DNA from: a virus
Taxonomy: Duplodnaviria > Caudoviricetes
IMG/VR virus record: IMGVR_UViG_3300046648_000377
Span: 330 to 64,329 of that record
Direction: 5' to 3' (one strand)
DNA length: 64,000 nucleotides
Position 1 is the first letter of the stretch; every line of letters begins with the position of its first letter. Position numbers and translations under genes: made by a program. Below are positions 19,718 to 40,790 of this stretch, one piece after another. The notes under the pieces are model-generated. The model worked only from the letters and a program-made list of their open reading frames with translations, had not been told where the DNA came from and searched no databases.

Positions 19718-20353
19718 TCAGTCGGTCAGGCTGACCTGGTAGCCGAGCGTGATCGTCTCGCCGTTGAACGCAGTGCGCGCGTTGTCGAACTTGGTGGCCG
19801 ACATTAAGACACCGGCAGTGCTCCCGCGCCCGTTATCGCTCAGCAGGCCGCAGCCGGTGATCGTGACGCTGGCTGCGGTGGCGAACGTGAAGGTCGCCTT
19901 GTTCGCATTGCTGTCGACCACGCCGGCGACAGGCGCGCCTGGGACCCACTGCGGGCGCGTCGGGCTGGTGTAGCCCTCGGATGTGCTGACGATTTCGCCC
20001 TGCGTCGCAGCGAAGCTGGCTGCGGTCAGGCCTGCCGCCGGAACGGCTGCGCCGTTGGTCAGCGCGAGGTAGAACTTCGGGAGCTTCGCCGCATCGGTTA
20101 GCGCGATGGCGAGGATCGTCGCGATGCCCTGGTCGGGGACGAGGTTGTGATCGAGGGTGAACTCGCTTTCGTGCTCGTTGAGGCGATGGAAGTATTCGCC
20201 GGCGACGCGAAGAGAGTCGGCGACGATGATCGCGCCACCCGAGATCCTGTACTTGCCGCCCAGGAGGCACTTGGCGAAGTGGAGCCGGTAGCGCTCGATT
20301 TCACGAGCGACGCGGCGCGTGGGGACGTGGATGAGCTGAAGTGGGTTGCGCAT
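19718..20353 (-). CDS. virion structural protein
   Basis: ATG 20353 after GAGGAAGG; HNLVPDQG and GVLMSATKF motifs typical of phage tail-associated proteins. Confidence 0.65.
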   Translation of the reverse strand: MRNPLQLIHVPTRRVAREIERYRLHFAKCLLGGKYRISGGAIIVADSLRVAGEYFHRLNEHESEFTLDHNLVPDQGIATILAIALTDAAKLPKFYLALTNGAAVPAAGLTAASFAATQGEIVSTSEGYTSPTRPQWVPGAPVAGVVDSNANKATFTFATAASVTITGCGLLSDNGRGSTAGVLMSATKFDNARTAFNGETITLGYQVSLTD

Positions 20354-20392
20354 GAGTGCCTTCCTCGTGAGGATGAAGGGCACTCATGCGCC
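20348..20392 (-). promoter_or_regulatory. leader RNA switch copy A (GGCGC-AUGA-GUGCC, alternatively a 13-bp stem over the start codon)
   Basis: 14-mer at 20379-20392; perfect inverted repeat with 20348-20360, which covers ATG 20353. Confidence 0.75.
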
Positions 20393-20431
20393 ACGTGACG
20401 TAGTACGCCGCACCAGGCGGCGGCTTGTCCG

Positions 20432-21619
20432 CTACGTGAGTGTAGCGGTGACGCGCCGGGAAAGCGCGCAGATTGAAGCGGTGCCGGAGGCCCCGATCGA
20501 GAGGCGATCCCCTTGCGGTTCGATGAGACTTCCGTCGTCGCAGCCAAGGACAAACCCGTTGCCAGCTATCCAGACAGCGACACGTCGACCAGCCTGCTGG
20601 TAGGTCGCTGGCAGCTGATTGCCATCGATGTACGCCACGCCGCCCGTGGCCGGTGGAAGCGCGCCCTTGCGCTCAAGTGTCCATTCACCAGGGCGACCGC
20701 CTCGAAGGAACTGCACGCCAAGCCGCGTGCCGACGTAAAGGCCGCCCTCGACAGCCGCGACCATGGTGATCCGGTTCGCAAACTGCACGAAGCCATGCCG
20801 CGGCGAGTGCAGGCCCGGGTTCATGGGCTGGCTCATGATCAGCGTGCGTCCTTTCGCGACAAGGAGCAGGCCGCGCCACGCGGTGATGAAGCTGCCCCCC
20901 GGCAGGCGTGCAAGGAGCTGGGTGGTGGCCTGGCGGCCGAGCTGGCCCTGTCCGATAAGAAACGTCGTCATGCCCAGTGGTACGTCGGCGCAGTGATACA
21001 GGACGGCACCGTTTGGCTCGGTGCGGTAGACCCTCGCGATATCCGCATCGGCGATGGCCTCGATCGGGCCGAGGGCAATACCCTGCCCGTCGGCCAAGTT
21101 CACCGTGCGAGCAGCTGATAGCGCGCCCTCCTGCCCTTCGCGTACGTAGGCGACGGCCATTGAATAGCGGCCCGCGACCAGGCCACCGATGGCATTGGCC
21201 GTGAGGTCCGGGAACGGACCATCGGGAGGCGCCAGGGGCCGCACCTGGTCGCCTACGATCTCAAACACGCCCAGGCGCTGGCTACCGACCGTCCTATCGT
21301 CGAGGTCGGCGAAGGAACACGGCTCGTCGGAAGGCAGGTCGCCCAGCGCGGTGGCGCCGGCGGTGGTGAGACGGTAAAGGATCGAGCTCGCGACGCCGAA
21401 CGTTCCACGCAACCCGGTCCACACGCTATGCAGCCCGGGCAGCGGAACCACGAGCCGCAGGCCTCGACGGCGCTGCGCGTCACCGCTGCGGTCGATGTCG
21501 ACGTTCAACGCGTCCACCAGCGCTATCGGGCGGCCCTTGTCGTCCGAGCGGACGGACGTCGGGTCCGAGACGTTGTCGATACCGAGAGGCCAGGGACCGA
21601 TCGCGACGGGCTTCTTCAT
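20432..21619 (-). CDS. tail nozzle/head-closure-like virion protein
   Basis: GPWPLGIDNV..DALNVDIDRSG..RRRG N-terminus typical of podovirus nozzle/stabilization proteins. Confidence 0.6.
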   Translation of the reverse strand: MKKPVAIGPWPLGIDNVSDPTSVRSDDKGRPIALVDALNVDIDRSGDAQRRRGLRLVVPLPGLHSVWTGLRGTFGVASSILYRLTTAGATALGDLPSDEPCSFADLDDRTVGSQRLGVFEIVGDQVRPLAPPDGPFPDLTANAIGGLVAGRYSMAVAYVREGQEGALSAARTVNLADGQGIALGPIEAIADADIARVYRTEPNGAVLYHCADVPLGMTTFLIGQGQLGRQATTQLLARLPGGSFITAWRGLLLVAKGRTLIMSQPMNPGLHSPRHGFVQFANRITMVAAVEGGLYVGTRLGVQFLRGGRPGEWTLERKGALPPATGGVAYIDGNQLPATYQQAGRRVAVWIAGNGFVLGCDDGSLIEPQGDRLSIGASGTASICALSRRVTATLT

Positions 21620-24600
21620 GTGCTGACCTCGAGCTTGGGTTGACCGAAGACGCCGGCGGCGCCGTCGTGAACTGCAATAGCGCGGTTTCCACACCAGCTG
21701 GCCACGAGCGTTGGCCCGCCGATCTCGCCCTCATCGATGGCAGCGGGGGCCACAGGCATTCCCATACGGGGTGAACCAACAGCCCCGACCATGCCCGTTG
21801 GGCGCACGAGACTGCCGATGACCGCCCTGCCGTATGCGGCCAGGTCGTCGCCGTACGGCTTCACCTTGCCTGCCTCCCATCGCTGCACGTCCCCGAAGAC
21901 GCCGTCTTCGAACCCGTCCGGATTGATCCGAGAGACCGGTGCCACCGCGACGCGTCCCATCCCCGGCGGTTCCATTCCAGCTGGCGCGATGCCGTGTCGC
22001 CCGAGCGAGGTCCACGGTGTGCCCATCACCGACGTGGAGCCCACGGAAATGTCGGTGATGCGCATCTGCTTAGTGACCCGCATGCGGTCACGGAACGAAC
22101 CCGGGCTGTCGGCTGCCACTGCCTCAGACTGCCATCCAGCAGGGTCGAGGTAGCGGATGTAATTGCTGATCCATGGATTGCCGAAGCTCGACTGGTCGAT
22201 CCCGACAAAGGGAAACGGCGCATACGCGTTGCTGATCCAGCTCGACGTGCGTGGCCACACCGGCGCCGCGGGTGGACTGATCAGGAAGGCGTTGAATCCC
22301 GACACCAGCAGCTGGCGGTTGAAGAGCTGTACATCCTGCCGCGGCATCGTACTGGCGGCGAGGCCGCCGGGACGAATCGTGCGAGGGCCCAGGTCCTCAG
22401 CGTGATTGACCGCGTAGCTGCCAAACACTGACATGTCGAAGCCGTAGAGGCCAACGTCCCCACCGCCGTTCAATGTCGGGAAGCCCAGCTTCTGGAACGT
22501 CGATCCCTGGGCACGGATGTAGAGCGGTCGCTGGACCAGGCCCGGCGCGCCGAACGATCCGTGCGACGAGCCAGTGAGCCGGAGTTCGCGATCGCGGTGC
22601 GTGACTACGGCACTTCCGAAGACAGGGCGCTCTGGATGGTCGGCACCGTGTACGCCGGCGTCCATCTGCTGACCTTGCTCTTGCCAGTAGCCCGTCGTGT
22701 AGGGGTAGCCCTGCGGTGCCCAGATGTAGCGCGGACCAACATCTGCCGCCGGAACGGTCGCGTTGCTCGGCGCATCGATGCCCGCCGGGAACAGGAAGCG
22801 CGTGCCGTTGAACGTCGGGATGCCGCACTGGACGCCGGTCGTCTCGTCATAAGGCGGAGTGATGCCCTTCGCAAGGATTCCGTTGTTTACGAACCGCGCT
22901 GATCCGAAGATGGACGAGTCGCTGCCTGACGCGTAGAGCACGTTGATCTGAACACCCGGGTGTCCAACCAAGCCCGTGTCGGTGCCCGTGGGAGCCAATA
23001 TCTGCGGCGACGGCGGATCCGGCGAAACCTTGCGCATCTGGTGAAGCTGCGAGATAGGCAACGGGCCAACGCCGAGCGGCAACACCGTGATTCGACGATC
23101 CTTGACGACATGCCGCCCGAAGGTTTCGCCCCCGAACGACTGGAACGCGAAGTGTTCGAACTGGTTGTGGATGGCGGCGGTACCGAACATCGTCGCCGTC
23201 CACCCGAAGATCGGCAGTTCCGGCGTGACGTTCTGGACGCGGCCCTCACCGAAGGCATTCGCCGGCGGGAGCGTGGAACTCGGCGCGATGATCGTGAAGT
23301 GCTGCTCGAGCGTGGGAACGCCGGCGCCGCCGGCGGCAAAGCCTGGAACCCGGACATACCGGATCCAGTTCTCGACATCGACATTGCCGAACGGCGGTGG
23401 CCCGGAGAGCGAGAACGGGCTGATCGTGCGGATGGCGAAGTCGACCATTTGGGTGCCGAACACCGACTGATCTGCACCGACCAGGCGCAGGGTCTGCAGG
23501 TTGCTCCAGACCCTTCTGGGCTTGCCCATCGTCCCAGGATCGATCCCGTTCGGAGCCAGCACGCGGGCGCCGTTGTAAACGATCGTGCCCACGACACTCC
23601 CCCAGCCGGTCGTCTCAGTGCCGACGAACTGGATCGTCCGAATCGCTGGCGCGACCAAGCTGTTCCCCCACAGCGTGAAGTCGATGAACGCTGGCGTGGC
23701 CACAATCCTCGCAGCGTTTCGAAGGTCGGGAGTGCCATACCGCCCTGCGGCCAGGCCGTCAGGGCGCGGCATCTGGTTCCGATTCATCACCAGGTTGAAG
23801 TCGCCGAACACGCCGCCGTCGCTTGGCGTCACTTCAAACTGCTGCTCGATGACCTGCTTGAGGTTGTAGATCTGGGTGCGGCCGAACTGTTCGGCCGACG
23901 TCGGGCCGCCACCGATCCAACCAGGAGGGGCAACGAACTGCTTGGCCAGCCGCAGCGTCGTCTCGCCCCACGCCGTGCCGCGGATCCCGAGATCCTGCAT
24001 GTCCACGATAAACCGGGGCCGGTACACCTCGGCCTGGCCGAACGTCTCGCTCCCGAAGGGCGCGGGGAAGACGTTGTGCTGAAAGTCCATGAGAGGCCTG
24101 CCCCACTGCGTGGCAATGAACCACGCAGGGAAGATCTCCCTTACCCGAAACGTCAGGACAGGCGCCGGCGGTGCGATTGGCGTAATCCCGCGACCCGCCA
24201 TATCGACGATACGGACGCCGCCCGACATGGTCGCGGTGCCGAAGTGGCTGGTATCAGCGAGAGTTACCGCGGTGAGCCGCCTCGTGCCCAGGCTTACCCA
24301 TGCCGTACCAGACGCGAACGCGCTGATGCCGCCAGGGCGAACTTCCTGACTGAGGTTGTAAAGCTTTGCTTGACCGAACGCTCCCGGCGCGATGCCTGGA
24401 ACCAATACGCTCTTCGTGAGAACCAGGTTGCCACTGACGGAACCGGAGTCCCAGCCAGCCGCGAAGATCTGCGCGGTTGCGTTCCGCAACGAAGCGGTGC
24501 CAAACAGGCCCGCATCGAAGCCCGCCGCAAACACGGTACCCGGCAAGCCGCCGAAGCGGAATGACACCTTGTCGCCTGCCGGGATAGCGTAGGCCGCTCC

Positions 24601-24654: not shown

Positions 24655-24657
24655 AAC

Positions 24658-25749: not shown

Positions 25750-25752
25750 TCA

Positions 25753-27056: not shown

Positions 27057-27070
27057 GCGATCTGCCCCGG

Positions 27071-27484
27071 TCAGAGTTTGAAGATCTTGTTGGTGCCGTT
27101 GTCCCACGTGCAGATGATGTCGCCGCCGTTGGGGGTGATCGGCAGGCCGGTGGCCGTGTCGATGAACGCAATCAGGGGTGAGGTGCCTTCGGTACCGGTG
27201 TCCTTGAAGATCACCAGGGCCTCGATCGACGCACCGGTCACGGCGCTGAAGGTGATGTCCGCGGCATCGGCTGCACCGCCGGTGGTGGTCTTGCTGATAA
27301 GTGCGACGCCGCTCGACGTGCCGATGCGCGCCGACGTCGGGATGTCCGACAGGAACTGGTGGGTGGTGAAGTTGGCCGAGTACGAACCCGTGTCGACCAG
27401 GATGACCTTGATGGTGTCCGTCAGCCAATTGAACTGGCCCTCGAGGAAGCGCTGCCGACCGAAGTCGTAAAGGGTGTTTGCCAT
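27071..27484 (-). CDS. conserved virion structural protein (137 aa)
   Basis: MANTLY..DTIKVILVD..GLPITPNGGDIICTWDNGTNKIFKL, a common phage structural family. Confidence 0.8.
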   Translation of the reverse strand: MANTLYDFGRQRFLEGQFNWLTDTIKVILVDTGSYSANFTTHQFLSDIPTSARIGTSSGVALISKTTTGGAADAADITFSAVTGASIEALVIFKDTGTEGTSPLIAFIDTATGLPITPNGGDIICTWDNGTNKIFKL

Positions 27485-27521
27485 GGGTGTCGCTCCGATG
27501 TCGGGGCGGCACTCATGCGCC
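27481..27521 (-). promoter_or_regulatory. leader RNA switch copy B
   Basis: 14-mer at 27508-27521; CAUGAGUG can pair with CACCCAUG (one mismatch) at start codon 27484. Confidence 0.7.
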
Positions 27522-27547
27522 GTTGGTTGAGCTGGTCAGCGCCAGCG

Positions 27548-28234
27548 CTAGAAGGTCTGTACGTGCCTGACGCGAGGGGGGCTATCAGCCCAACGCGCCA
27601 TCGCCATCAGCGACGGCCGTGTGCCAAACCGTTGCTCGAACAGGCTGAGATGGGTACCCGACGCATCCTCTGCATTCGCGTCGGCATCCTTCTTGAGGTA
27701 TGCCTCATGGGCCACCCAGTGCCGAAGCTCCTCGATGTCTGGGATCTTGATCACTGGCTCGTCGGTATCGTTCACGAGCAGCTCGTCGCCGCGCGGTACG
27801 CGCCAGGCGCGAAGATGCAGGGTCATCGCCCGATCTGGGTTCGGCCAAAGCTGGATCGACTTCTGCGCAAGGTCCATCACCATGACCCTGGGCGTCCCGC
27901 TCTCGACACGGGCCTCATCCCAGCCGGGCTGAACCCGATCCATGTCGTACGACGCAAGCGCCCAAAGCTTGTGCGTCGCGCCGATGATCGATCCCGATCG
28001 CGGTACAAGGATCGAGCTGTCAAAGGACACGCGTCCGCCGGTGGCCGGATCGATCGCGATCACGCACGTCGCCGGATCCCCGACGGCGTCGACGTGAAGC
28101 AGGCGCGCACGGATGCAAACCTCGCGCACGGCGTTGTTGAGATACCGCGTCAGCTCCTCGTCGCTCCAGAGCTGAGGCTCGGCCTCGTCGTCGAGCATCG
28201 AGCGGATCACGGCAATGAAGTCGACGAGCTTCAT
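27548..28234 (-). CDS. head-tail adaptor protein
   Basis: LWSDEELTRYLNNAVREVCIR..WVAHEAYLKKDAD..FEQRFG. Confidence 0.75.
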   Translation of the reverse strand: MKLVDFIAVIRSMLDDEAEPQLWSDEELTRYLNNAVREVCIRARLLHVDAVGDPATCVIAIDPATGGRVSFDSSILVPRSGSIIGATHKLWALASYDMDRVQPGWDEARVESGTPRVMVMDLAQKSIQLWPNPDRAMTLHLRAWRVPRGDELLVNDTDEPVIKIPDIEELRHWVAHEAYLKKDADANAEDASGTHLSLFEQRFGTRPSLMAMARWADSPPRVRHVQTF

Positions 28235-28237
28235 GGA

Positions 28238-29422: not shown

Positions 29423-29428
29423 CGACGT

Positions 29429-30550
29429 TTACGCGGCGATCGGGTTCGGGTCCGTGGCGAAGGTGTCGACCGACAGCAGGCCGAAGTCGCGATCCTTGTA
29501 GCGGGTCTTCTTCATGCCAAGGATCGTGCTCGAGGAGATGACGATCTGGTTGCCATCGTCCTCGGTACCCTCGTACCAGTCGTAGCGTAGGCCGGAACCC
29601 GGGCTACCGTATGCCTGGACGAGAGCCTGCGCACCCAGGAACAGTGCTCGCGCCGCGGGCTGGGCGTTGTCGACGCCGGCATTGTTGAAACGGATCACGC
29701 CGTTGTGGCTGTGCAGGATGACGCCGCGATGCATACCGAGCGCGCCGGTGAAGATCGGGTTGCCCTGCCCCTGCGCAGCGGCGGCCGCCTTCTGGATTTC
29801 GAGCCAGCCGGTCGTGCCCTGGTTCTTCGTCCGCAGGTCGTGCTCCTGGAACGAGTGCATGACCATGACGTAGCGATCCTCGCCATTGATCTTGATCGGG
29901 CGCAGCTTCACACGACCATCCGAACCGCCGCCCATCGTCGCCGCCTTGGTGACAGCCCGGTCGATCACGGAGAGGTCCATGTAGTCGTCGTTGCTGAGCG
30001 TCGCGAAGTTGGTCGCATCGCCGCCGAACAGCCAGTGGTCGCCGTCGGGCGTCGTGAACTGGTTGCCGGCGAAGCCCGCATAACCGAGGTCCTGGATGAA
30101 GTCGCCGTTGATGCCCCGGGAGCCAGACGCAGTCATGAAGGTCTCTTCATCGCTCCAGCGCGCCCACCACTCGGACATCTTGACGCGGGCAATCGAGCGC
30201 AGGTTGTGCAGCGTCCGCTTCCGGCTCATCCGGCCGCCGGCGTTAACGCCGCAGCGGACTTGGTCGATCATGATGGTGTCGCTGAAGTTCTTCAGCTTTT
30301 CGTGCTTACCGCGCAGCAGGTTGTCACCGAAGGTGGGCTTCTGCGTCAGCGGCGCGAACAAGTCGTACTTGATGGTGTCGCCCGCTTCATTCTCGAGCTC
30401 CGTGAGTACCTGGATCGGCACCGGAGCATCCTCCTTCTTGGAGGCAAAGCGGGACTGCCAGTACGAATCGCGTGCCTGGTCGGTGAAAAGCGTGGCGGAC
30501 CAGCGCTTCACCGCAATGGGGTTGTTCAAGCCAACAATGGTCTGCGACAT
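29429..30550 (-). CDS. major capsid protein (DUF4043/N4-gp56 family)
   Basis: AVKRWSA.LF, AGDTIKYDL, IDQVR.GV.AGGRMSRKRTLH.LR, NPIFTGALG, RALFLGAQA, DFG. Confidence 0.92.
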   Translation of the reverse strand: MSQTIVGLNNPIAVKRWSATLFTDQARDSYWQSRFASKKEDAPVPIQVLTELENEAGDTIKYDLFAPLTQKPTFGDNLLRGKHEKLKNFSDTIMIDQVRCGVNAGGRMSRKRTLHNLRSIARVKMSEWWARWSDEETFMTASGSRGINGDFIQDLGYAGFAGNQFTTPDGDHWLFGGDATNFATLSNDDYMDLSVIDRAVTKAATMGGGSDGRVKLRPIKINGEDRYVMVMHSFQEHDLRTKNQGTTGWLEIQKAAAAAQGQGNPIFTGALGMHRGVILHSHNGVIRFNNAGVDNAQPAARALFLGAQALVQAYGSPGSGLRYDWYEGTEDDGNQIVISSSTILGMKKTRYKDRDFGLLSVDTFATDPNPIAA

Positions 30551-30589
30551 GAGTTCTTTCCTCGAAATAAGGGAAGGCACTCATGCGCC
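30544..30589 (-). promoter_or_regulatory. leader RNA switch copy C (capsid gene leader)
   Basis: 14-mer at 30576-30589; CAUGAGU pairs with ACUCAUG at start codon 30550. Confidence 0.75.
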
Positions 30590-30623
30590 GGATCGAATTG
30601 TCGCGCTCTTGCGCGGGTGAGGT

Positions 30624-30872
30624 TTACGCGCTCTGCGTATGCCTCGTCAAAAAGGGACGACTCTCGTCCTTCGCCCCTTCTTTGATCGGTGGCCGCTGCC
30701 TCGCTAACGGAGCGGTCGCGGGTATCGGTACTCCAGCCTTGACGCGACTCACGTCGTCCGGACTGTCGATCACCAGGCGGGCCCGCTGTCCGGTCTTTTT
30801 CTCGAGCCGGATGCGCGTGCCGTCGCCGATGAGCAGTGTATCGCCTGGAGCGAGATCAAGGTGAAGCGACAT
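30624..30872 (-). CDS. CsrA/RsmA-fold RNA-binding protein (divergent)
   Basis: LHLDLAPGDTLLIGDGTRIRLEKKTGQRARLVIDSPDDVS aligns without gaps to the CsrA core ([40 protein letters not shown], recalled). Confidence 0.7.
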   Translation of the reverse strand: MSLHLDLAPGDTLLIGDGTRIRLEKKTGQRARLVIDSPDDVSRVKAGVPIPATAPLARQRPPIKEGAKDESRPFLTRHTQSA

Positions 30873-30877: not shown

Positions 30878-31894
30878 TTATTCCGGCGTGCCAGAGGGCT
30901 TGCCCGAGGTCGTGGCCCCCGGCGCATCGCGCAGGTATGCCTCCACGGCGTCAGGGGTCATCTTGGCCAGGGCGAGCTCGAGGGAATTAATGTCGCTTCC
31001 GTCCAACGTGCCGTACGCGGTGTTGCCGGCCGGTCGTTCCATGGAGGCCGCCGCTGGCGCGCTGGCAAGTGTCTGCGGCACCGCCGGCGGCGTACGGCCC
31101 GCAGTCGCTGCTGCCAACGCTACCTCGGCCGCTGTTGGGCCGCCGGCAGCGGGCGCGGCTGTCGGCTTGTAGTCGAATGCTTCGAACGCGGCCTCTGCTG
31201 CGCGTGCGAGCAGCTCCTGCGAGGGAAGCTTTCCTCCGGTTTCGCGGTCGATGACCTCGATCGCCCGCTGCATCGCATCGCGACGCACCGGGTTGGCCAT
31301 GAAGGCCTTGTTGGCCTCCATCCACGCGGCCGAGGCAGTGTTGAAGTCCACGGTAGCGGCATTCGCGGCACGTGTTTGCTCTTCCTGCCAGAGCGTGAGC
31401 CGTGTGTTGAAGACGCTCTCTTCTTTGCTTAGCGCGCGGGACTGCGCCTGGAACTCACCGCTGTCGATCTCGCCGTCGTCATAGCGCTTCTGGACCGCGA
31501 GGAACTCGGCATCGAAGTCTTTCGGGGCGCTCGGCATCGCGGCCTGCGGTGGCGCAGGTGGCGCTGCCGCCGGCACGACGGGCGTCGGCACGCTGGCGGC
31601 TGCTGCCGCAGCTGCTGCGGCGGCGTTCGCGGCAGCATCGTCCGTGGCCGCGCCGCTGGCAGCGGCCGCCGGAGCACCTTCGGCCGCCGGCACGGCACCC
31701 GCGGCGGGCGGCGCTGCCGCCGCCGCTGCAGCTGCTGCGGCGGCAGCCGCGTCCGTTGCTGCTGGAGCTGCGTCAGGGTCGACCAGGGGGTTTTCACCGA
31801 TGGTTGCCAGCTGCGCGGTGAGCCGTGCTTCGTTGTCGGTGGGCGCGCCGGCGTCGATGTTGTGGGTCGGCTCGGTGTTCGTCGTGTCGTTCAT
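30878..31894 (-). CDS. capsid scaffolding protein
   Basis: Ala-rich N-terminus, helical core, located between portal and capsid genes. Confidence 0.75.
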   Translation of the reverse strand: MNDTTNTEPTHNIDAGAPTDNEARLTAQLATIGENPLVDPDAAPAATDAAAAAAAAAAAAAPPAAGAVPAAEGAPAAAASGAATDDAAANAAAAAAAAAASVPTPVVPAAAPPAPPQAAMPSAPKDFDAEFLAVQKRYDDGEIDSGEFQAQSRALSKEESVFNTRLTLWQEEQTRAANAATVDFNTASAAWMEANKAFMANPVRRDAMQRAIEVIDRETGGKLPSQELLARAAEAAFEAFDYKPTAAPAAGGPTAAEVALAAATAGRTPPAVPQTLASAPAAASMERPAGNTAYGTLDGSDINSLELALAKMTPDAVEAYLRDAPGATTSGKPSGTPE

Positions 31895-31901
31895 ATGGTC
31901 C

Positions 31902-34088
31902 TCACTGGATGGGAGCGGCGGGTGCTGCCGCCTGTGGGTCGTACAGACGGTCCGCCGCGGGAGCGAGCGGCGCCAACGCATGGAGCATTCCAGCGGTCTG
32001 AAGGGCTTGCGTCTTACCTTCCACCGTCGTGCTCCGCGCGGTTGCTTCGGCAGCCGACGCGCGTGCGTTGTCGAGCCTGGTCTTTGCCTGCTGGGCCTCG
32101 GTCGCGGTCTGCTCCTGTGCCTGCTTCGCGGCATCTGCGGCCTGCTGCGCCCGCAGGGCCTCTGGGCTGTTCTCCAGGCCGGGTGCCGTCTGGCCATTGA
32201 TCTGGCGGATTCGGTTGACGAGGGCCTGCTTGTTCGGAATGTCCGTGAGGTCGACGGCCATATCGAGCATCTGCACACCGACGTCGGGTGGCATGCGGCC
32301 GATGAGTTCGAACAACGACTCGGCCATGGCCATACGAACCGTCTCGCGATAGTCGGTCTGATCGATGACGAAGTCGGCCTCGCTGTCCGTGATGTCGTTG
32401 TTCCAGGTCACGTCGCCCGTCGCGTGGTTGTACTGCGGGCTGTTAATGGAAAAGAACTTGATCGCCCCATCTGCGCCGGCGATGCGAACGACCTTCGGCA
32501 GCGATAAGAACTTCTCGCAGTTGCTGAGCGTCTTCTGCCCGGACTCCTGGATGGCCTGGCGGAAGTTGTCGAAGAGTTCCGCAGTCGTGACGCTGCCCTG
32601 CTGCTGCTTGGCGAGGATCGCCCTGCCGCTCTGGTCGCTGCTGGCGCCCTGGCCCGTGTTCTCGCGTGTGACGCCACTCGCTTCGTAGATGTTGCCCTTC
32701 GATTCGGCGAGCATCGCGATCTGGCCGGTCATCGCGTCGAGGGCGCGATCGATCTTGAACTTCTCCATACCGTTCGGCGCCAAGCGGATCTCGCCATCCG
32801 GTCGCTTCGCCTCCTCGAGGTTGCGATCCTCGTCCGCCTCCTCCATCGCCCCGGTCTCGTAGATGACGCGCGTAGTCGACAGGTCGAACAGGATCTTCGA
32901 GCGGCGCTTGTTGTACTCGTCCTGGGCATCACGAGCTGGCCGGATGAGGCCGTAAGGCATGCCGTCCCGGTGACGGCGATACGCCCAGGTCGGGGTGAAT
33001 GGAAAGCGCTTGTGCTTGTAGGGCGACTTGTTCAGGCGCAGCAGCGTGCCAGGCGTCCAGAGGGCGAACCACATTTCCTCGGTTACGCTGTCGACCAGGC
33101 TGACGACGCCGGTGGAGAGAGCGTCCTGCATGACGGCATTCTTCGGGTCGAACGGCAGGCCATTAAGGTCGCTGGCGCTATCGCCCAAGACGAGCGGCGT
33201 ATTCACGGCACGCTTGAACCAGGTCTCGAGGCAGAGCACGCGCTTGCGCGCCCGACGAAACATGCTGCTCGACCCGTAGAGGTTGAACGAGCCAGAGTTG
33301 GCGGTGCGGTCTGACGAGAAGGGCGCCGGTGCGCCAAAGAACATCTGCGGTACCGACGACTCCATGATCAACGACTCCATCGGGGAGTCGAGAGTGTCGA
33401 TCGCGTGCTTGTCCAGCTCGGCGGCACGATCGGGCCACATAGCGATGGCGTAGTCGAGGTCGATCCACTTGGCGCGGGTCATGTACCGGCAGTCGCGCAT
33501 GACGTTGCTACGACTGTACGGATCCCACCACATGCCCTTCCAGTCCTGGTGGCGGACCGTGATGGCCTCCTCGGACTTGTCGTTGTTGTAGCACTCCTCG
33601 GTCCAGCCGATGCCAACCTTCGCCGCATCGGCGAACTGCGCGCTACGCTCCCAGCCGGCGCCGTTCACGTCGGAGATCCACTTCAGGACATCCTTCTTCA
33701 CCGCGGCAATGTCGACGTCCTGATCGGCCCGGGGCAGAACGTCCCAGTCGATACGCGTGCGGCGTTCGGTACCGATCACCCAGTCAACCATCTGTTTGAT
33801 GATCGGGAAGGTGAGCGGCGCCTGGCCACGCTCGAGGAGGACCTGGGCATCTTCAGCGCGCCATTGGATCGAGTCGTAGTAGTCCGCGTCGATGAGCTGC
33901 TCGCGACGACTGTCGGCGTGCTGGTCACGCGCCTCGGTCCACCAGTCTTCAAGGCGGCGGAGGATCCGCGTCCCTTCGTCGGTGTCAAGGTAGTGTGTCG
34001 GCGGGTTGTCCGCAGGATCAGCCGGCTGAAGCGCGCCGAACCCGTCGCCGTTATTCTGACCATGAACGTCAAGCATGCCCGTTGCCAT
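31902..34088 (-). CDS. portal protein
   Basis: DADYYDSIQW..ERGQAPL, KVGIGW, QDEYNKRRSK, SGRAILAKQQQG. Confidence 0.9.
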   Translation of the reverse strand: MATGMLDVHGQNNGDGFGALQPADPADNPPTHYLDTDEGTRILRRLEDWWTEARDQHADSRREQLIDADYYDSIQWRAEDAQVLLERGQAPLTFPIIKQMVDWVIGTERRTRIDWDVLPRADQDVDIAAVKKDVLKWISDVNGAGWERSAQFADAAKVGIGWTEECYNNDKSEEAITVRHQDWKGMWWDPYSRSNVMRDCRYMTRAKWIDLDYAIAMWPDRAAELDKHAIDTLDSPMESLIMESSVPQMFFGAPAPFSSDRTANSGSFNLYGSSSMFRRARKRVLCLETWFKRAVNTPLVLGDSASDLNGLPFDPKNAVMQDALSTGVVSLVDSVTEEMWFALWTPGTLLRLNKSPYKHKRFPFTPTWAYRRHRDGMPYGLIRPARDAQDEYNKRRSKILFDLSTTRVIYETGAMEEADEDRNLEEAKRPDGEIRLAPNGMEKFKIDRALDAMTGQIAMLAESKGNIYEASGVTRENTGQGASSDQSGRAILAKQQQGSVTTAELFDNFRQAIQESGQKTLSNCEKFLSLPKVVRIAGADGAIKFFSINSPQYNHATGDVTWNNDITDSEADFVIDQTDYRETVRMAMAESLFELIGRMPPDVGVQMLDMAVDLTDIPNKQALVNRIRQINGQTAPGLENSPEALRAQQAADAAKQAQEQTATEAQQAKTRLDNARASAAEATARSTTVEGKTQALQTAGMLHALAPLAPAADRLYDPQAAAPAAPIQ

Positions 34089-34564
34089 CAGCCCACCGTC
34101 CTTTTGCCATTCACTTCGACGAAGAAATCGAGCCCTTCCTGAGCGCAGCCTTCCATGAACGCGTCCATGCTCTTGTCCTTGTAGAGGTCCGGATCGGGTG
34201 GCGACTTGCGCAGATCGCCGAGGTAATCCATCACGGCATCCATCACCCGGAACAAGTCGTCCTTGGTCACGAAGCCGTACAGCTGCTGGGCAAGGGGCGG
34301 GATCATCAGGTGTATGGCGTTGTGCTCCGCGTACTGCCACATCATCGACAGCGGAATGAACACACCCTTCCCCGGGTCGTTGCGCCTGAGGAAGAGGGCC
34401 GCCTGTCGGCCGTGGCCAGTACCGAAGTTCCCGTAGTGGAGTTCGACGGTCAGGTCGCCCTTCTTACCGACGTGGCTATGCCTGGACGTGACGTGGTTGA
34501 CGCCGGCGTTGTTGCCGGCGCCGGGCGTCATTGCGTAAGCGAAGCTCTCCCGCTTCATCGGCAT
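34088..34564 (-). CDS. hypothetical protein
   Basis: 158 aa, TGATG overlaps on both sides. Confidence 0.7.
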   Translation of the reverse strand: MPMKRESFAYAMTPGAGNNAGVNHVTSRHSHVGKKGDLTVELHYGNFGTGHGRQAALFLRRNDPGKGVFIPLSMMWQYAEHNAIHLMIPPLAQQLYGFVTKDDLFRVMDAVMDYLGDLRKSPPDPDLYKDKSMDAFMEGCAQEGLDFFVEVNGKRTVG

Positions 34565-37473: not shown

Positions 37474-38281
37474 TGCCGCCTGGCCTCGGTAAGCCTGTAC
37501 CGGCGCCATCGATCGCGGCGAGTATGTCGTTCATCGAATGCTCAACGGGGCCGCCGTCCTTGCCGGTCAGCTCGAGGCGTTCCTTGAATACACCCATGTG
37601 CTTACCGACGTTGGCGCGCGCCTCGGTCTGGCTATGCATCTTGATTTCGAGTCCGTGCTGCGTCGTCTTGACGCCGGCATACAGCCGAAGCGCGCTGGGG
37701 GACAGGTCGCGGGTGTCCTTGGCGATGACGCGCTCGACCCCGTCGCCGAAGCACTCGGGACAGTCGGGATTGGGATCGTTCTTCGGGTTGTAGCCGATGC
37801 CACCCTGCTCACTGAACTTGCGCGGCTTCTTGCCGTCGGCAACGAGCGCCCTGTTGTCCTCGGCGTTGCGGGCCCTCGCCTCTTCCAACTCGCGCGGCGT
37901 CGACTGGAACTTGTTTCCCTTTCCCCAGCAGTAGCGGCAGCATGAGCGGTGCAGCTCAATGAGCTCGCGGGGATCCGCCTCGGCGATCGCCCAGAAGCCT
38001 TTCACGACCTCGTCAGCGGTGATTCCGAGCTTGTCCATGCGCTCCGTCATCTTCGCCTGAACCTTCTCCTGCACCTCGGACGTGGCCAGCAGCTCGGAAG
38101 CCGTCTGTCGGGCTGACTGCGCGCTGTAGCCCGCCCGGATCGCCGCCTGCCTGCCGTTGAGGTCGACCAGGTACTCGGCCACGAACACGTCCACGCGGTT
38201 GACGCCGTGCACCGCCTTGCCAGCAGCCTTCTTGGCTGCCGGCTTGCTCTTCTTCGTGGTCTTGGCGGGGGATCGAGGCAT
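37460..38281 (-). CDS. terS: terminase small subunit
   Basis: FVAEYLVDLNGRQAAIRAGYS, internal CRYCWG/CPECFGDG, ELTGKDGGP. Confidence 0.92.
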   Translation of the reverse strand: MPRSPAKTTKKSKPAAKKAAGKAVHGVNRVDVFVAEYLVDLNGRQAAIRAGYSAQSARQTASELLATSEVQEKVQAKMTERMDKLGITADEVVKGFWAIAEADPRELIELHRSCCRYCWGKGNKFQSTPRELEEARARNAEDNRALVADGKKPRKFSEQGGIGYNPKNDPNPDCPECFGDGVERVIAKDTRDLSPSALRLYAGVKTTQHGLEIKMHSQTEARANVGKHMGVFKERLELTGKDGGPVEHSMNDILAAIDGAGTGLPRPGGNGGS

Positions 38282-38297
38282 GTTCGGAAATGTCAGG

Positions 38298-38819
38298 TCA
38301 GCCAGCCGGCTGCGCGCCCACGTCCGAGGCCGCTATCACGATGTCGGCGGTACCGTCGAATGCATGACCAGCGATCTGCCGCGCGGTCGCCAGCTTCGTT
38401 GCCGCAGCTGCTGTGCCTCCGGTTGCCAGCGCGCCAACTCCCGCCGCGGTGATCGCGATATTCGCTGTGCCGTCGAACCCGACGCCGGCGATGGTTCGAA
38501 CCGTGGCGAGTTTCGTAGCTGCTGCCGCCGTTCCGTTCGTCCCGAGCTTCGTCGCCAGGCCATCGGTCAGTGCCTGCGTCGACGCCTTCGCATCGAGGGC
38601 AGATTGCAGGCCGGCAACATCGGCGATCTGCAGATCGACGGGCGCGCCGCCTGCTCCGTCGGGAACACCTTCAATGACCGCCTGCACCAGCTTTCCGTTG
38701 AAAGCGATGGGCTGGCCAAATGGCTGCCACCCTGCGGTGATCGCGTTAGAGACTGCGAGGCTCAACCCGTCTGGGTAAGCGGAATCGGCTGTTACGAGCT
38801 TGTATGCCGTGATGCTCAT
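38298..38819 (-). CDS. DUF1737-like domain plus tail-fiber repeats
   Basis: GWQPFGQP N-domain; two copies of GTAAAATKLATxRxIAGxxFDGTA(N/D)I. Confidence 0.7.
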   Translation of the reverse strand: MSITAYKLVTADSAYPDGLSLAVSNAITAGWQPFGQPIAFNGKLVQAVIEGVPDGAGGAPVDLQIADVAGLQSALDAKASTQALTDGLATKLGTNGTAAAATKLATVRTIAGVGFDGTANIAITAAGVGALATGGTAAAATKLATARQIAGHAFDGTADIVIAASDVGAQPAG

Positions 38820-38838
38820 CGTGTTACTCCATCAGTGG

Positions 38839-39144
38839 TCAGCGTGCGCAGCGAATGGCTTGGGCGCGGATGGTCTGGTAGGCCTCGGAGTCGGACGCCT
38901 TCAGGTCCAGCAAGGTCTGAGCGCGGCCATGCGGCGAAAGCGTCTGGTAGTTGTCTGGCAGGCCGGCCAGTTCGGGTGCGAAACCCTCGAACGACGCTTT
39001 GAGGCATTCAGCGGGAGGTGGCACTGGCGGGATCACCGGTGGATCGATGAGCCGAACCCGCGGCGTTGTACAGGCGGATAAAGTCGTCGCTGCCGACAGG
39101 ATCAGGACAGACGCCAGCGCTCGCCGGCGGATCGAAGCGAGCAT
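38839..39144 (-). CDS. outer-membrane spanin (Rz1-like lipoprotein)
   Basis: Lipobox LSAC, Pro-rich, overlaps the i-spanin 3' end in another frame. Confidence 0.7.
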   Translation of the reverse strand: MLASIRRRALASVLILSAATTLSACTTPRVRLIDPPVIPPVPPPAECLKASFEGFAPELAGLPDNYQTLSPHGRAQTLLDLKASDSEAYQTIRAQAIRCAR

Positions 39145-39409
39145 TAGAGATCTCCAGACGGATATCGGTCATGGCGGCATGGATGCCGGCCTGGTCTTTC
39201 TGCAGGGCGAACGTGTTGCCCTGTTCCCGTGTCAGGTCGCCCTGGCGCTGGGCGAGACCCTTGTTCACGGTGTCCGTGATCGCATCGGTTCGAGCGTCGG
39301 CCGCGACAGCTTCCGCCTTCGAGCTGCTGGAACCGCCGGCGCGCCAACCGATGAAGATGCCCAGGGCAAACGCCACGAGGACCGCGGCCAAGATCGTCGC
39401 GGGTTTCAT
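39008..39409 (-). CDS. inner-membrane spanin (Rz-like)
   Basis: N-terminal TM, periplasmic helix, follows endolysin with ATGA overlap. Confidence 0.75.
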   Translation of the reverse strand: MKPATILAAVLVAFALGIFIGWRAGGSSSSKAEAVAADARTDAITDTVNKGLAQRQGDLTREQGNTFALQKDQAGIHAAMTDIRLEISNARFDPPASAGVCPDPVGSDDFIRLYNAAGSAHRSTGDPASATSR

Positions 39410-39906
39410 GGCTGATCTCCCGTGCAAAGCGAGTATTCCCACTCACGACGATCGGGTATGCCTGGGCAGCCGCTCGAAGCAATACGGCAATCCTTGCCGC
39501 CAGCGCGGTACCACAGCGGAATCTGGGCGCAGGCGCGCTTGTTCTCGCCCGCGTTGAGCAGGCGAGCAGCCGTCGAGTTGCAGAAGTTGGCAGTGCCGAC
39601 GTTGTAGGCGAAGTCGCCCCAGGCCCTGATCTCGTGGAACTCGAGCTCGGTGTGAACACACCCACCCATGTGCCCGAGCATCTTCGTGACGTAGGCCGCT
39701 TCGAGCCCATCGCACTCAGCCTTGGTGTACGTCTTGCCGGGGATGACATCGGGGCCGGTGATGCCGGCGCAGACGGTCCACACGTGACCGAGCTTGTCCC
39801 AATACGGGACATACTTTCGTCCCTCATGCGCAGGGAGCGAGGCGACGATGGCCATGACCAGCGCGACCCCAGCAGCGGCGAACGATGTCTTCCCCACCTT
39901 AGCCAT
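39406..39906 (-). CDS. SAR endolysin (GH24 lysozyme)
   Basis: Ala-rich N-terminal SAR helix; HEG..YWDKLGHVWTVCAG E-D-T triad; FAYNVG; RREWE. Confidence 0.92.
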   Translation of the reverse strand: MAKVGKTSFAAAGVALVMAIVASLPAHEGRKYVPYWDKLGHVWTVCAGITGPDVIPGKTYTKAECDGLEAAYVTKMLGHMGGCVHTELEFHEIRAWGDFAYNVGTANFCNSTAARLLNAGENKRACAQIPLWYRAGGKDCRIASSGCPGIPDRREWEYSLCTGDQP

Positions 39907-40132
39907 CGACCTTCGGCCTCCTGGTTACGACGCGGCCGATGAAGGTGGCCACCGAGACCACGGCGCCGGCGATGAATACCCACCGAAGCGGGACAATGCC
40001 CACGAGGGGTAGCGCCAACTTCATGCCGCCTGCGACGCACGCGAGTACGGTGTGTGTAGACGTGGACACCGCACTCAGCTGCACGGAGGCCCATTTCCAG
40101 GCGCTGCGCCAATCGTCGACCAGCTTGATCAT
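39899..40132 (-). CDS. holin
   Basis: MIKLVDDWRSAWKWASVQL, two hydrophobic segments, basic C-terminus, precedes endolysin. Confidence 0.75.
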   Translation of the reverse strand: MIKLVDDWRSAWKWASVQLSAVSTSTHTVLACVAGGMKLALPLVGIVPLRWVFIAGAVVSVATFIGRVVTRRPKVDG

Positions 40133-40389
40133 TGCGTCTCCCCGTCCTGGTTAATGCCGAGCAGCTGTTCGAGCTTCACGGCGTATGCCTTCCAGTCCGC
40201 CGCGTTCTTGCTGGTAGACGGCTTGGACTTCGCAACCGTCGGCGCGGGCGCCTGGCACACCGGGACGGGCAACTCCACGTTGACGGTCGCGCTTGGCGTC
40301 GGCTTCGTCGGTGCCGGGGCCTTCGGCGGGGCGGCCGCGCATGCGGACACGAGCGCCAGCATCAGCAGGGCGACTGGGCGGCGAGTCAC
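40129..40389 (-). CDS. lipoprotein in lysis cassette
   Basis: Lipobox VSAC, Pro-rich linker, C-terminal helix. Confidence 0.7.
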   Translation of the reverse strand: MTRRPVALLMLALVSACAAAPPKAPAPTKPTPSATVNVELPVPVCQAPAPTVAKSKPSTSKNAADWKAYAVKLEQLLGINQDGETQ

Positions 40390-40754
40390 TGCGCGGGCCT
40401 CGACTTCTGCACTTCCTGCGTGGCTGCCTGTTTCAGGTAGCCGAGGTCGAACTCGTTCTGCGTAACCCGACGGTCTATCGACTGAAGCGCCAGCACTGAG
40501 GCGTCGCTCACCTTCTGAAGGTTGTCGACCTTGGCCGTCGTATCGTGCTGAGTCAGCGTTAGATCCTGGGTCCGCTGCGAAGCGACCTTGATGTCGTCAC
40601 GCATCTCGCGAACGTAGCCGGTGGCCAGGGCGATCGAACCGGTCACCGTGGTTGTGACGAGCACCTTCGCGACGATCCATAGCAGGCGCGCGCTCGCGGT
40701 CTCACCAATGCGCTGCAGTGCCCCGATCGGAGGGGTGGGTGTGTTTTCGGACAT
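40386..40754 (-). CDS. membrane-anchored coiled-coil protein, first late gene
   Basis: Single hydrophobic segment followed by heptads; AAGGA RBS. Confidence 0.7.
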   Translation of the reverse strand: MSENTPTPPIGALQRIGETASARLLWIVAKVLVTTTVTGSIALATGYVREMRDDIKVASQRTQDLTLTQHDTTAKVDNLQKVSDASVLALQSIDRRVTQNEFDLGYLKQAATQEVQKSRPAQ

Positions 40755-40790
40755 GGGCGTTTCCTTGGTGGCGAGAAAGGCTCATGCCTT
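40750..40790 (-). promoter_or_regulatory. leader RNA switch copy D (AAGGC-AUGA-GCCUU)
   Basis: Different stem with the same loop at 40777-40790; GGCAUGAGCCUUUC can alternatively pair with GAAACGCCCAUGUC over ATG 40754. Confidence 0.65.

What the first reader, a model, noticed from the sequence alone, without database searches (positions are those of the whole stretch)
20348..40790. Candidate phage translational switch: CsrA-fold protein plus repeated AUGA-tetraloop leader hairpins that compete with start-codon-occluding stems
Seen: the identical 14-mer GGCGCATGAGTGCC (mRNA sense) lies 24-26 nt upstream of three late start codons: 20379-20392 (ATG 20353), 27508-27521 (ATG 27484) and 30576-30589 (capsid ATG 30550). 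It folds on itself as GGCGC-AUGA-GUGCC. A fourth copy before the first late gene (40777-40790, AAGGC-AUGA-GCCUU) has a different stem but the same C-AUGA-G loop, which is covariation. In all four, the element can instead pair with the sequence around the start codon (13 bp perfect in copy A), burying the AUG and flanking the SD. The gene immediately upstream of copy C (30624-30872) aligns gap-free to the CsrA core (about 13/43 identities by eye against recalled E. coli CsrA), with the R6/R7/R44 RNA-contact positions changed. Known: CsrA/RsmA bind short hairpins with GGA loops. Inference: this divergent CsrA binds the AUGA-loop hairpin, blocks the inhibitory long stem and switches on or tunes capsid, tail and lysis translation. 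I do not recall this being described.
Basis: partly seen in the sequence, partly recalled or inferred. Interest (0 to 1): 0.92.

Follow-up and report, generated by a model that had tools for sequence, protein, structure and literature searches.

The report
Phage CsrA-like protein and leader hairpins
This phage carries a small relative of the bacterial RNA-binding regulator CsrA next to its capsid gene, and a conserved RNA hairpin in front of the capsid and two other virion genes that is probably its docking site and may switch their translation on.

Summary
GGCGCATGAGTGCC occurs exactly three times, always on the minus strand, 23-25 nt before the start codons of the capsid gene and two other virion genes (0 expected by chance). 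The window is nearly a whole 64-kb Bcep22-like podophage. ORF 30624-30872 is a diverged CsrA-family protein (PHROG 8397 "CsrA-like regulator", E 1.6e-11; family profile against RsmE 2jpp, E 1.2e-7; the top 15 fold matches are all CsrA/RsmA/RsmE).

In 80 related loci the hairpin is [covarying stem]-CGC-ANGA-GUG-[stem]. It runs 96 sense to 3 antisense, and 71 of 77 unique copies lie within 70 nt upstream of a gene start. It nearly always travels with a CsrA-like gene. One complete relative lacks both.

The 3' half of the hairpin also pairs with the region just before the AUG. Folding predicts a long helix that buries the AUG in all window leaders, and forcing the small hairpin frees the ribosome site.

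- The loop is ANGA, and U is only the local variant.
- The basic residue at the R44 position is kept, as K.
- The fourth copy (40777-40790) is not supported.

Binding, and whether it activates or represses, are untested. The gene family is already annotated in print. I found no paper describing the hairpin or its link to the protein. This scan has noted the same system in other genomes.

The parts
30624..30872 (-). 82-aa CsrA-family gene ('CsrA-like regulator') between the scaffold-like gene and the capsid gene. Its start follows the scaffold-like stop by 5 nt.
   Evidence: PHROG 8397, E 1.6e-11. Pfam CsrA, E 0.0015. Family profile A4 against RsmE 2jpp, E 1.2e-7. AF2 pLDDT 85 and top 15 PDB fold hits all CsrA/RsmA/RsmE.
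30576..30589 (-). Hairpin C, GGCGC-AUGA-GUGCC, in the capsid leader, with 25 nt between it and the capsid AUG.
   Evidence: Model R1 23.4 bits, E 0.0022. The same position is conserved in nearly all related capsid leaders.
30602..30615 (-). Upstream tandem hairpin CGCGC-AAGA-GCGCG. It starts 9 nt after the CsrA-like stop codon.
   Evidence: Sequence. R1 13.4 bits, E 0.58, which is weak. Relatives L003, L005, L006, L023 and L033 have a second hairpin at the matching place.
29429..30550 (-). Major capsid gene. The bases -7..+3 around its AUG pair with the loop and 3' arm of hairpin C.
   Evidence: Pfam Phage_capsid_3, E 5e-57. Folds.
27507..27522 (-). Hairpin B, CGGCGC-AUGA-GUGCCG, in the leader of gene B.
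   Evidence: R1 26.3 bits, E 0.00046, the best hit in the window. The homologous leaders in L003, L004 and phage F116 carry the hairpin too.
27071..27484 (-). Gene B, 137 aa, virion-module gene of unknown function (phrog_644). It follows the SU10-type adaptor gene.
20379..20392 (-). Hairpin A, GGCGC-AUGA-GUGCC, in the leader of gene A.
   Evidence: R1 24.3 bits, E 0.0014. The homologous leader in L003 has two hairpins in tandem.
20347..20359 (-). Perfect 13-nt complement of hairpin A that includes the AUG of gene A. It is the 3' strand of the long occluding helix.
   Evidence: With the small hairpin enforced, the unpaired probability of the AUG rises from 0.00 to 0.60.
19718..20353 (-). Gene A, 211 aa (phrog_8123; weak Pfam match to GP4 fibre I protein gp80). 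It follows the head-closure Hc3 gene.
40777..40790 (-). Membership is not supported.
   Evidence: Present. Not among the R1 hits at E<=10. Its gene has no homologue in the 5 relatives searched.
44122..44135 (-). Possible extra site, GUCGC-AUGA-GUGAU. The loop AUG is the start codon of the 331-aa ORF 43135-44130 in the early region. Unverified.
   Evidence: R1 19.3 bits, E 0.022. ORF and sequence. In G001 all 4 R1 hits (E<=0.1) are the late-leader sites already seen in L003.

Best explanation
The 82-aa product of 30624-30872 is a phage-encoded, diverged CsrA-family RNA-binding protein. Its operators are the small hairpins [stem]-CGC-ANGA-GUG-[stem] in the mRNA leaders of the capsid gene, gene B and gene A.

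Each leader can fold in two mutually exclusive ways. One is a long helix in which the motif pairs with the stretch from the Shine-Dalgarno spacer to the AUG; this form is thermodynamically favoured and closes the ribosome site. The other is the small local hairpin, which leaves the ribosome site open.

I propose that the protein, made from the gene just upstream on the same late transcript, captures the small hairpin as it forms and so turns on or tunes translation of these virion genes. This is the logic of CsrA activation of ymdA.

Shown here: the motif, its strand specificity, covariation of both helices, its position in leaders, family membership of the protein, and their joint occurrence.

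Inferred: that the protein binds the hairpin, and that binding activates.
For: Motif statistics:
- 3 exact 14-mers against 0 in 100 shuffles.
- Across 80 related loci plus the window (1.09 Mb), the strict core CGCANGAGTG occurs 96 times in the sense of the capsid gene and 3 times antisense.
- 74 of 75 unique sense copies extend the stem beyond the 3 core pairs, and 71 of 75 reach at least 5 bp.

Covariation:
- In the 62-row alignment A5, pair 5-18, which was not used for selection, is paired in 59 of 62 rows with 6 pair types.
- Pair 6-17 shows UA 31, GC 27, CG 2, AU 1, UG 1. This pair was required to be paired when rows were picked, so only its variety counts.
- 85.9% of cells are paired, against 25-47% with slid partners.
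- The G.U pair in the core is invariant. That fits RNA and not a DNA palindrome, although the core was fixed by my selection.

Position:
- 71 of 77 unique copies have an SD-preceded start of an ORF of at least 80 aa within 70 nt, against 7.7% of random positions.
- In complete or near-complete relatives, 11 of 11 model hits at E<=0.1 are in sense, with 0-4 per genome.

Alternative helix:
- The longest helix between the hairpin's loop plus 3' arm and bases -12..+4 of the start is at least 6 bp in 63% of 46 cognate leaders. It reaches that in 15% of tests against non-motif genes and 43% of tests against non-cognate motif genes.
- The predicted unpaired probability of the ribosome site is 0.23, against 0.45 for 992 control starts.
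- In the window the AUG is buried in A, B and C.
- Enforcing the small hairpin raises P(unpaired AUG) to 0.60-0.65, at a cost of 17.9 (A), 5.8 (B) and 9.0 (C) kcal/mol.

Protein:
- (36 of 93 family members hit Pfam CsrA at E<=0.01).
- K45 aligns with CsrA R44 and L5 with L4. The review PMC7652899 (passages read) marks L4 and R44 as critical.

Link between protein and hairpin:
- Of 65 unique capsid leaders with enough upstream sequence, 44 have both, 13 have the protein only, 3 have the hairpin only and 5 have neither.
- One hairpin-only case, L046, does have a diverged 63-aa ORF in the slot.
- The complete 52-kb relative G009 has neither gene nor hairpin.
- In F116 the gene sits elsewhere, directly before the gene-B homologue, and the hairpins are there.
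- Bcep22, L063 and L029 carry CAGGA(U/C/A)G loops. These equal the CsrB repeat CAGGA(U/A/C)G quoted in PMC7652899.

Functional hint: knock-down of the csrA homologue of phage PTXU04 gave smaller plaques (PMC11879866, passages read). I did not check whether PTXU04 has the hairpin.
Against: - No binding, structure-probing or expression data exist here, and no RNA run was listed.
- The window loops are AUGA and lack the GGA that defines classical CsrA sites.
- The protein lacks R6/R7, and no C-terminal helix is predicted.
- 13 of 65 unique leaders have the protein but no hairpin by my strict definition. Several of these carry variant loops by eye, but L072, L073, L075 and L079 show none, and their records gave no model hit.
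- Gene and motif are both near-universal in this clade, so their co-occurrence is largely shared ancestry. Only a few independent events bear on it: the G009 lineage, L016 and F116.
- For leader A the 17.9 kcal/mol gap is too large for an equilibrium switch, so kinetic capture would be needed.
- In relatives the scaffold-like gene carries the hairpin 5-14 nt from its start, with the loop or 3' arm acting as the SD (24 of 24 instances, not deduplicated). There, binding should repress. The sign of regulation is therefore not uniform and may also be repression here.
- In JC1 the protein gave one peptide in virion mass spectrometry (PMC9144972), which hints at some other role.
Confidence: 0.55

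Rival explanations
1. The same protein-hairpin pair acts as a classical CsrA-type repressor. One face of the dimer binds the hairpin loop and the other binds the GGA inside the Shine-Dalgarno sequence (or stabilises a closed fold), so ribosomes are kept off. This would limit or delay capsid and virion-protein synthesis.
For: - All three window leaders have GGA in the SD region.
- Tandem hairpins 25-35 nt apart in C and in relatives suit two-site binding by a dimer.
- Two-site repression of glgC is the standard CsrA mechanism (PMC7652899).
- In relatives the scaffold-like gene has the hairpin loop or 3' arm as its SD (24 of 24 instances), an architecture that can hardly do anything but repress.
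Against: - The leaders are already predicted to be closed without any protein, so a repressor seems redundant for the most abundant virion protein.
- The small hairpin, which covariation shows is under selection, has a predicted equilibrium probability near 0 in 41 of 46 leaders. It therefore seems to need a stabilising factor, and forming it opens the ribosome site.
Confidence: 0.2
2. The leader structures work without the phage protein, for example as mRNA-stability or RNase-processing elements, or as structures opened by ribosomes or temperature. The CsrA-like protein would act on host mRNAs (the 'moron' view) or have a virion role.
For: - The JC1 paper treats the gene as a moron and found one peptide of it in virions (PMC9144972).
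- 13 of 65 leaders have the protein without a strict hairpin.
- The window loops lack GGA.
Against: - The invariant CGC-ANGA-GUG core across capsid proteins only 48-77% identical, with freely varying outer stems, points to sequence-specific recognition and not mere structure.
- The gene keeps a fixed slot in the head module in most of 80 loci, which is unlike a moron.
- In F116 gene and hairpins moved together.
- G009 lacks both.
Confidence: 0.15
3. The hairpins are bound by the host's own CsrA/RsmA, which ties late phage translation to host physiology.
For: Relatives carry loops that contain GGA, as classical CsrA sites do.
Against: - The window's loops are UGA, not GGA, and N varies freely.
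- Burkholderia cepacia and B. cenocepacia, hosts of the related Bcep22-type phages, are reported to lack chromosomal csrA (PMC7366521, passage read).
- The host of this window was not determined.
Confidence: 0.05
4. The motif is a DNA site, such as a late promoter, an activator box or a near-palindromic operator.
Against: - 96 sense against 3 antisense copies.
- Outer-stem covariation includes G.U and U.G pairs.
- An invariant G.U would be a mismatch in DNA.
- The hairpin is integrated with the SD (loop or arm equals the SD in 24 scaffold leaders) and is complementary to the start-codon region.
Confidence: 0.03

Closest known systems
CsrA/RsmA/RsmE with their hairpin operators (glgC, hcnA; PDB 2jpp)
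   Same: A small beta-rich RNA-binding protein of the same family. The operators are short hairpins with a purine-rich loop, often two per leader, near the ribosome site. Relatives' loops match the CsrB repeat CAGGA(U/A/C)G.
   Different: The loop consensus here is ANGA, and the window uses UGA, so the defining GGA is not required. The stem core CGC/GUG with a G.U is invariant. R6/R7 are absent and no C-terminal helix is predicted. The protein is encoded by a phage inside its head module and its sites are on the phage's own virion genes.
CsrA activation of ymdA translation in E. coli (Renda et al. 2020, as described in review PMC7652899; passages read)
   Same: A leader hairpin sequesters the ribosome site when the protein is absent. 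Binding sites lie inside and just upstream of that hairpin. Binding is proposed to open the site.
   Different: Here the site itself folds into a small alternative hairpin that is under covariation. There are three leaders per genome. None of this is tested experimentally.
Annotated phage 'CsrA-like regulator' or 'carbon storage regulator' genes (Bcep22 gp54, DC1, JC1 gp47, GP4, SopranoGao, F116 p47; PHROG 8397)
   Same: The same protein family and, except in F116, the same slot between the scaffold-like and capsid genes.
   Different: The published notes I read treat it as a moron or as unknown (PMC9144972, PMC7366521). [quoted passage not shown] None of them mentions a leader hairpin.
Phage translational regulators that bind an operator hairpin at a ribosome site (MS2 coat protein on the replicase operator, T4 RegA; recalled, not checked here)
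   Same: A phage protein controls translation of phage genes through a small RNA hairpin.
   Different: The protein folds are unrelated, those systems repress, and they are not CsrA-family.

Membership tests
CsrA/RsmA family (Pfam PF02599) | Sequence match to the family profile | tested here: met
   The window protein alone scores E 0.0015 and 18.9 bits, below the curated 27 bits. The 93-sequence family profile hits RsmE 2jpp at E 1.2e-7, and the 9 best PDB sequences are all CsrA/RsmA-family. 36 of 93 members hit PF02599 at E<=0.01. Homology is shown, but the Pfam cutoff is not reached by this one sequence.
CsrA/RsmA family (Pfam PF02599) | [quoted passage not shown] | tested here: inconclusive
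   AF2 monomer with mean pLDDT 85.3. The top 15 Foldseek PDB hits are all CsrA/RsmA/RsmE, with rmsd 0.6-4.3 A (most about 2 A) over 37-46 columns, but E-values are only 0.017-0.29. DSSP strands and no helix. The tail after residue 50 is Pro/Ala-rich.
CsrA/RsmA family (Pfam PF02599) | Interdigitated homodimer | tested here: inconclusive
   One complex job was run and gave no verdict. It carries no weight either way; see Tried and rejected.
CsrA/RsmA family (Pfam PF02599) | RNA-contact residues L4 and R44 (marked as critical in PMC7652899, Figure 1 legend) | tested here: met
   By alignment, L5 matches L4 and K45 matches R44, and the family has K or R at that column. R6/R7 are replaced by L7/A8.
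CsrA/RsmA family (Pfam PF02599) | Recognition of GGA in a hairpin loop | tested here: not met
   This was tested at the level of candidate sites only. The window loops are AUGA or AAGA. Across relatives the loop is ANGA with N = G, U, A or C. Binding itself cannot be tested with these tools.
PHROG 8397 'CsrA-like regulator' | Profile match | tested here: met
   E 1.6e-11, 45 bits, residues 1-41.
Any Rfam RNA family | Covariance-model match at the family threshold | tested here: not met
   The whole window at gathering thresholds gave only a tRNA. The capsid leader at E<=10 gave only two chance-level hits.
ymdA-type CsrA-activated leader | Ribosome site sequestered in a hairpin without the protein, with the candidate site inside that hairpin | tested here: met
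   Prediction only.
ymdA-type CsrA-activated leader | Protein binding opens the site and raises translation | not testable with these tools
   This needs footprinting, toeprinting and reporter fusions.

The most novel reading that the evidence does not exclude
A widespread clade of podophages uses a CsrA-family protein with relaxed specificity (ANGA instead of GGA) as a dedicated assembly-programme regulator. It captures a metastable hairpin co-transcriptionally to switch ON the capsid and other virion genes whose ribosome sites are otherwise locked. In many relatives the same protein would switch OFF the scaffold gene, whose SD lies in the hairpin. One RNA-binding protein would then set scaffold-to-capsid stoichiometry by acting in opposite directions on neighbouring genes.
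Probability: 0.3. Interest if true: 0.8.

Novelty: new variant of a known kind. Interest (0 to 1): 0.7.

Why it matters
Phage genomes have carried "CsrA-like regulator" annotations since Bcep22, without a known target. [quoted passage not shown]

A conserved, covarying hairpin in the phage's own capsid, scaffold and virion-gene leaders gives that gene family a concrete candidate operator that is cheap to test. It moves the family from "host-manipulating moron" to "regulator of virion gene translation".

It would also show that the CsrA fold can work with a loop that lacks the canonical GGA. It adds a bistable leader design that is absent from Rfam.

Cultured phages in which I saw both the gene and a hairpin are available for experiments: Bcep22, F116 and SopranoGao. 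JC1, DC1 and GP4 carry the annotated gene, but I did not inspect their leaders.

Tried and rejected
- Homodimer prediction (complex prediction, two copies of residues 1-52 with alignment A4): no verdict (0.36 against a mark of 0.42). It is not used as evidence either way.
- RNA-seq support (look-up of sequencing runs, kind rna): no RNA holder was listed. This is no evidence on expression.
I used the search for related loci and handles instead.
- Word-based protein search: only 3 close relatives. The full HMMER scan gave 184.
- Searching Bcep22 for further copies of its own 13-mer with up to 3 mismatches: 50 matches against 44 expected, so only the capsid-leader copy stands. Model R1, which is built on tetraloops, does not score the pentaloop variants well. 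It finds no significant hit in Bcep22 (best E 0.32) and only E 0.95 in SopranoGao.
- Copy D: rejected as a supported member.
- A sigma-54-like reading of the plus strand: rejected by eye, because the spacing and the strand are wrong. No tool was used.
- A small ORF starting in the motif: the GTG inside the motif is in frame with the downstream ATG in A and C. The Pfam capsid match starts at residue 7 of the ATG-started protein, so I kept the ATG starts.
- The idea that loop identity tracks protein residues was dropped, because single phages mix loops: L003 AUGA with ACGA, L008 AGGA with AAGA, L033 AAGA with AGGA.
- Literature: searches found no paper on the hairpin or on a target of the phage protein. 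Gill et al. 2011 (PMC3187461) is not held, so I could not see whether it mentions leader structures. Supplementary tables of PMC7366521 and PMC11879866 were not seen.
- Selection caveat: alignment A5 was picked by a regex for the core and by requiring pair 6-17. Core invariance and the zero unpaired cells at that pair are therefore by construction.
- Counting caveat: the counts are not deduplicated for near-identical loci.
- L002 is identical to the window and was left out of all counts.

Full report
**What is in the window.** The window is positions 330-64329 of a 64,329-base virus record. It has 64% G+C. Its late genes lie on the minus strand:
- a P22-type portal (ORF 31902-34340);
- a 338-aa scaffold-like gene (30878-31894);
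- an 82-aa ORF (30624-30872);
- the major capsid gene (29429-30550, Pfam Phage_capsid_3, E 5e-57);
- an SU10-type adaptor (27548-28234);
- gene B (27071-27484);
- a head-closure Hc3 gene (20432-21694);
- gene A (19718-20353).

By DNA and gene order it resembles the Bcep22-like podophages. Those carry an annotated "CsrA-like regulator" directly before the major head gene.

**The observation.** GGCGCATGAGTGCC occurs exactly three times, all on the minus strand, at the coordinates given. None of 100 shuffles gave a match. The copies lie in short intergenic gaps, 25, 23 and 25 nt before the ATGs of gene A, gene B and the capsid gene. Copy A has a perfect 13-nt complement that includes its own start codon.

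A second, weaker hairpin (CGCGC-AAGA-GCGCG, 30602-30615) precedes copy C.

The covariance model does not find it at E<=10. Its gene has no homologue in five relatives. Hairpins with an ATGA loop are not rare in this window, with 14 having a stem of at least 4 bp. I do not count it.

**The protein.**
- Alone it matches Pfam CsrA only weakly (E 0.0015, below the cutoff), but it matches PHROG 8397 "CsrA-like regulator" at E 1.6e-11.
- A full HMMER scan with a 4-sequence profile found 184 representatives at E<=0.001.
- A 93-sequence alignment of them (A4) hits RsmE (2jpp) at E 1.2e-7, and the nine best PDB sequences are all CsrA-family.
- 36 of the 93 members hit Pfam CsrA themselves.
- An AlphaFold2 model (pLDDT 85.3) has CsrA, RsmA or RsmE chains as all of its top 15 Foldseek hits, though at modest E-values (0.017-0.29). 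No C-terminal helix is predicted.
- By alignment, L5 and K45 correspond to CsrA L4 and R44, and the family has K or R at that column. R6/R7 are replaced.

**The RNA element in relatives.** A capsid-protein alignment retrieved 80 viral-contig loci with capsids 48-100% identical.
- Nearly every capsid leader holds a hairpin of the form [variable stem]-CGC-ANGA-GUG-[variable stem], with N = G, U, A or C. Some clades have five-base loops (AGGAU, AGGAC, AGGAA) that equal the CsrB repeat CAGGA(U/A/C)G.
- The strict ten-base core occurs 96 times in sense and 3 times antisense in 1.09 Mb. One of the three antisense cases is the start-codon complement of copy A.
- 74 of 75 unique sense copies extend the stem, and 71 of 75 reach at least 5 bp.
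- On 62 unique copies the outer pairs covary. Pair 5-18 has 59 of 62 rows paired and six pair types. Pair 6-17 has UA 31, GC 27, CG 2, AU 1 and UG 1, but being paired there was a selection criterion. Slid controls give 25-47% pairing against 85.9%.
- 71 of 77 unique copies have a gene start within 70 nt, against 7.7% of random positions.
- In five complete or near-complete relatives the model finds 0-4 hits per genome at E<=0.1, and all 11 are in sense.
- Nothing in Rfam matches.

**Position depends on the gene.** Before capsid genes the hairpin ends 23-41 nt from the start in 48 of 54 instances, 55-60 nt away in 5 (the upstream member of a tandem pair) and 9 nt away in one. Before scaffold-like genes it ends 5-14 nt away in 24 of 24, so the loop or the 3' arm is the Shine-Dalgarno sequence (instances not deduplicated). 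The window's scaffold-like gene has no hairpin. Its start follows the portal stop by a few bases.

**A second, competing helix.** The loop plus 3' arm of the hairpin is complementary to the stretch just before and into the start codon. The longest helix is at least 6 bp in 63% of 46 cognate leaders. The figure is 15% against non-motif genes and 43% against other phages' motif genes, so part of it covaries.
- Thermodynamic folding puts the small hairpin at about zero probability in 41 of 46 leaders.
- The ribosome site is less open than in 992 control starts (0.23 against 0.45).
- In the window, leaders A, B and C, and also D, bury the AUG.
- Enforcing the small hairpin opens it (P unpaired 0.60-0.65), at a cost of 17.9, 5.8 and 9.0 kcal/mol for A, B and C.

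A hairpin that covariation shows to be under selection, yet that is not the equilibrium fold, suggests a factor that stabilises it.

**Link between protein and hairpin.** With the A4 profile, a CsrA-like ORF lies just upstream of the capsid gene in most loci.
- Of 65 unique leaders with enough upstream sequence, 44 have both, 13 have the protein only, 3 have the hairpin only and 5 have neither.
- Among the hairpin-only cases, L046 has a diverged 63-aa ORF in the slot.
- Among the protein-only cases, several carry variant loops by eye, but L072, L073, L075 and L079 do not.
- The complete 52-kb relative G009 has scaffold directly followed by capsid, with no CsrA-like gene and no model hit anywhere.
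- In phage F116 the CsrA-like gene is not next to the capsid gene. It sits directly before the homologue of window gene B, and the hairpin lies in its own 3' end. A second hairpin whose loop is the SD precedes the next gene, and a third lies elsewhere.

Because gene and motif are both near-universal in the clade, most of the co-occurrence is shared ancestry. The few independent events agree with a link.

**Mechanism.** I judge it most likely (0.55) that the protein binds the small hairpin and thereby shifts these leaders from the closed to the open fold. That is the logic described for CsrA and ymdA (PMC7652899, passages read). Classical two-site repression is the main rival (0.2), and it is the more natural reading for the scaffold leaders of relatives. 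Protein-independent function (0.15), host CsrA (0.05) and a DNA site (0.03) are less likely, for the reasons given under the rivals.

**What is known.**
- The gene family is annotated in Bcep22-like phages.
- The JC1 paper calls it a moron and found one peptide in virions (PMC9144972, passages).
- Sobrero and Valverde list phage CsrA homologues (PMC7366521, passages).
- The CRISPRi-ART paper reports smaller plaques on knock-down of the csrA homologue of PTXU04, and says the role had not been tested (PMC11879866, passages).
- Six full-text searches found nothing on the hairpin or on a target. Gill et al. 2011 is not held, and supplements were not seen.

Earlier notes of this scan describe the same system in other genomes. 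I reached the same picture independently here and did not let those notes change the scores.

**Verdict.** This is a new variant of a known kind, CsrA-type control, applied to a phage's own virion genes with a non-GGA operator. Interest 0.7.

Noticed in passing
window 44122-44135 (-), ORF 43135-44130 (-): A motif-like hairpin GUCGC-AUGA-GUGAU (model R1 19.3 bits, E 0.022) whose loop AUG is the start codon of a 331-aa early-region ORF. Its N-terminus (FYPGDWL) recalls DUF1376-type proteins; that name is recalled, not tested. It could be a late shut-off site or chance. In relative G001 all 4 R1 hits are the late-leader sites already known from L003.
   Followed up: partly
window 40930-41110 (-): Upstream of the first late ORF there is a GC-rich hairpin followed by a T run (terminator-like), and further upstream a cluster of CGCACA(T)-type boxes. 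This may be a late-promoter or regulator region.
   Followed up: no
window 63066-63152 (-): A tRNA gene (Rfam tRNA, 60.8 bits) near the end of the virus record. The window's CsrA-like protein is also on record on a 2.6-Mb contig, so the phage probably also exists as a prophage.
   Followed up: no
window 30624-30872 (-), residues about 70-78; alignments A1 and A4: After a Pro/Ala-rich tail, the CsrA-like proteins of this clade share a short C-terminal motif (RPFLTR-like). Bcep22's shorter protein lacks it. It may be a docking peptide.
   Followed up: no
related loci, e.g. L010:8643-8656, L014:2728-2743: In many relatives the scaffold-like gene carries the same hairpin 5-14 nt before its start, so that the loop AGGA(G) or the 3' arm (GUGAAG|GAG) is the Shine-Dalgarno sequence. 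That architecture implies repression on binding. The window lacks this copy.
   Followed up: partly
L082 (phage F116, NC_006552.1) 2483-3110: In F116 the CsrA-like gene is separated from the capsid gene and sits directly before the homologue of window gene B (N-terminus MANTLYD...). One hairpin lies inside its own 3' end and another has its loop as the SD of the next gene.
   Followed up: yes
window 27523-27560 (-): Just upstream of hairpin B lies another small hairpin, GCUGG-CGCUGA-CCAGC, with UGA in its loop. It is not a match to the model.
   Followed up: no
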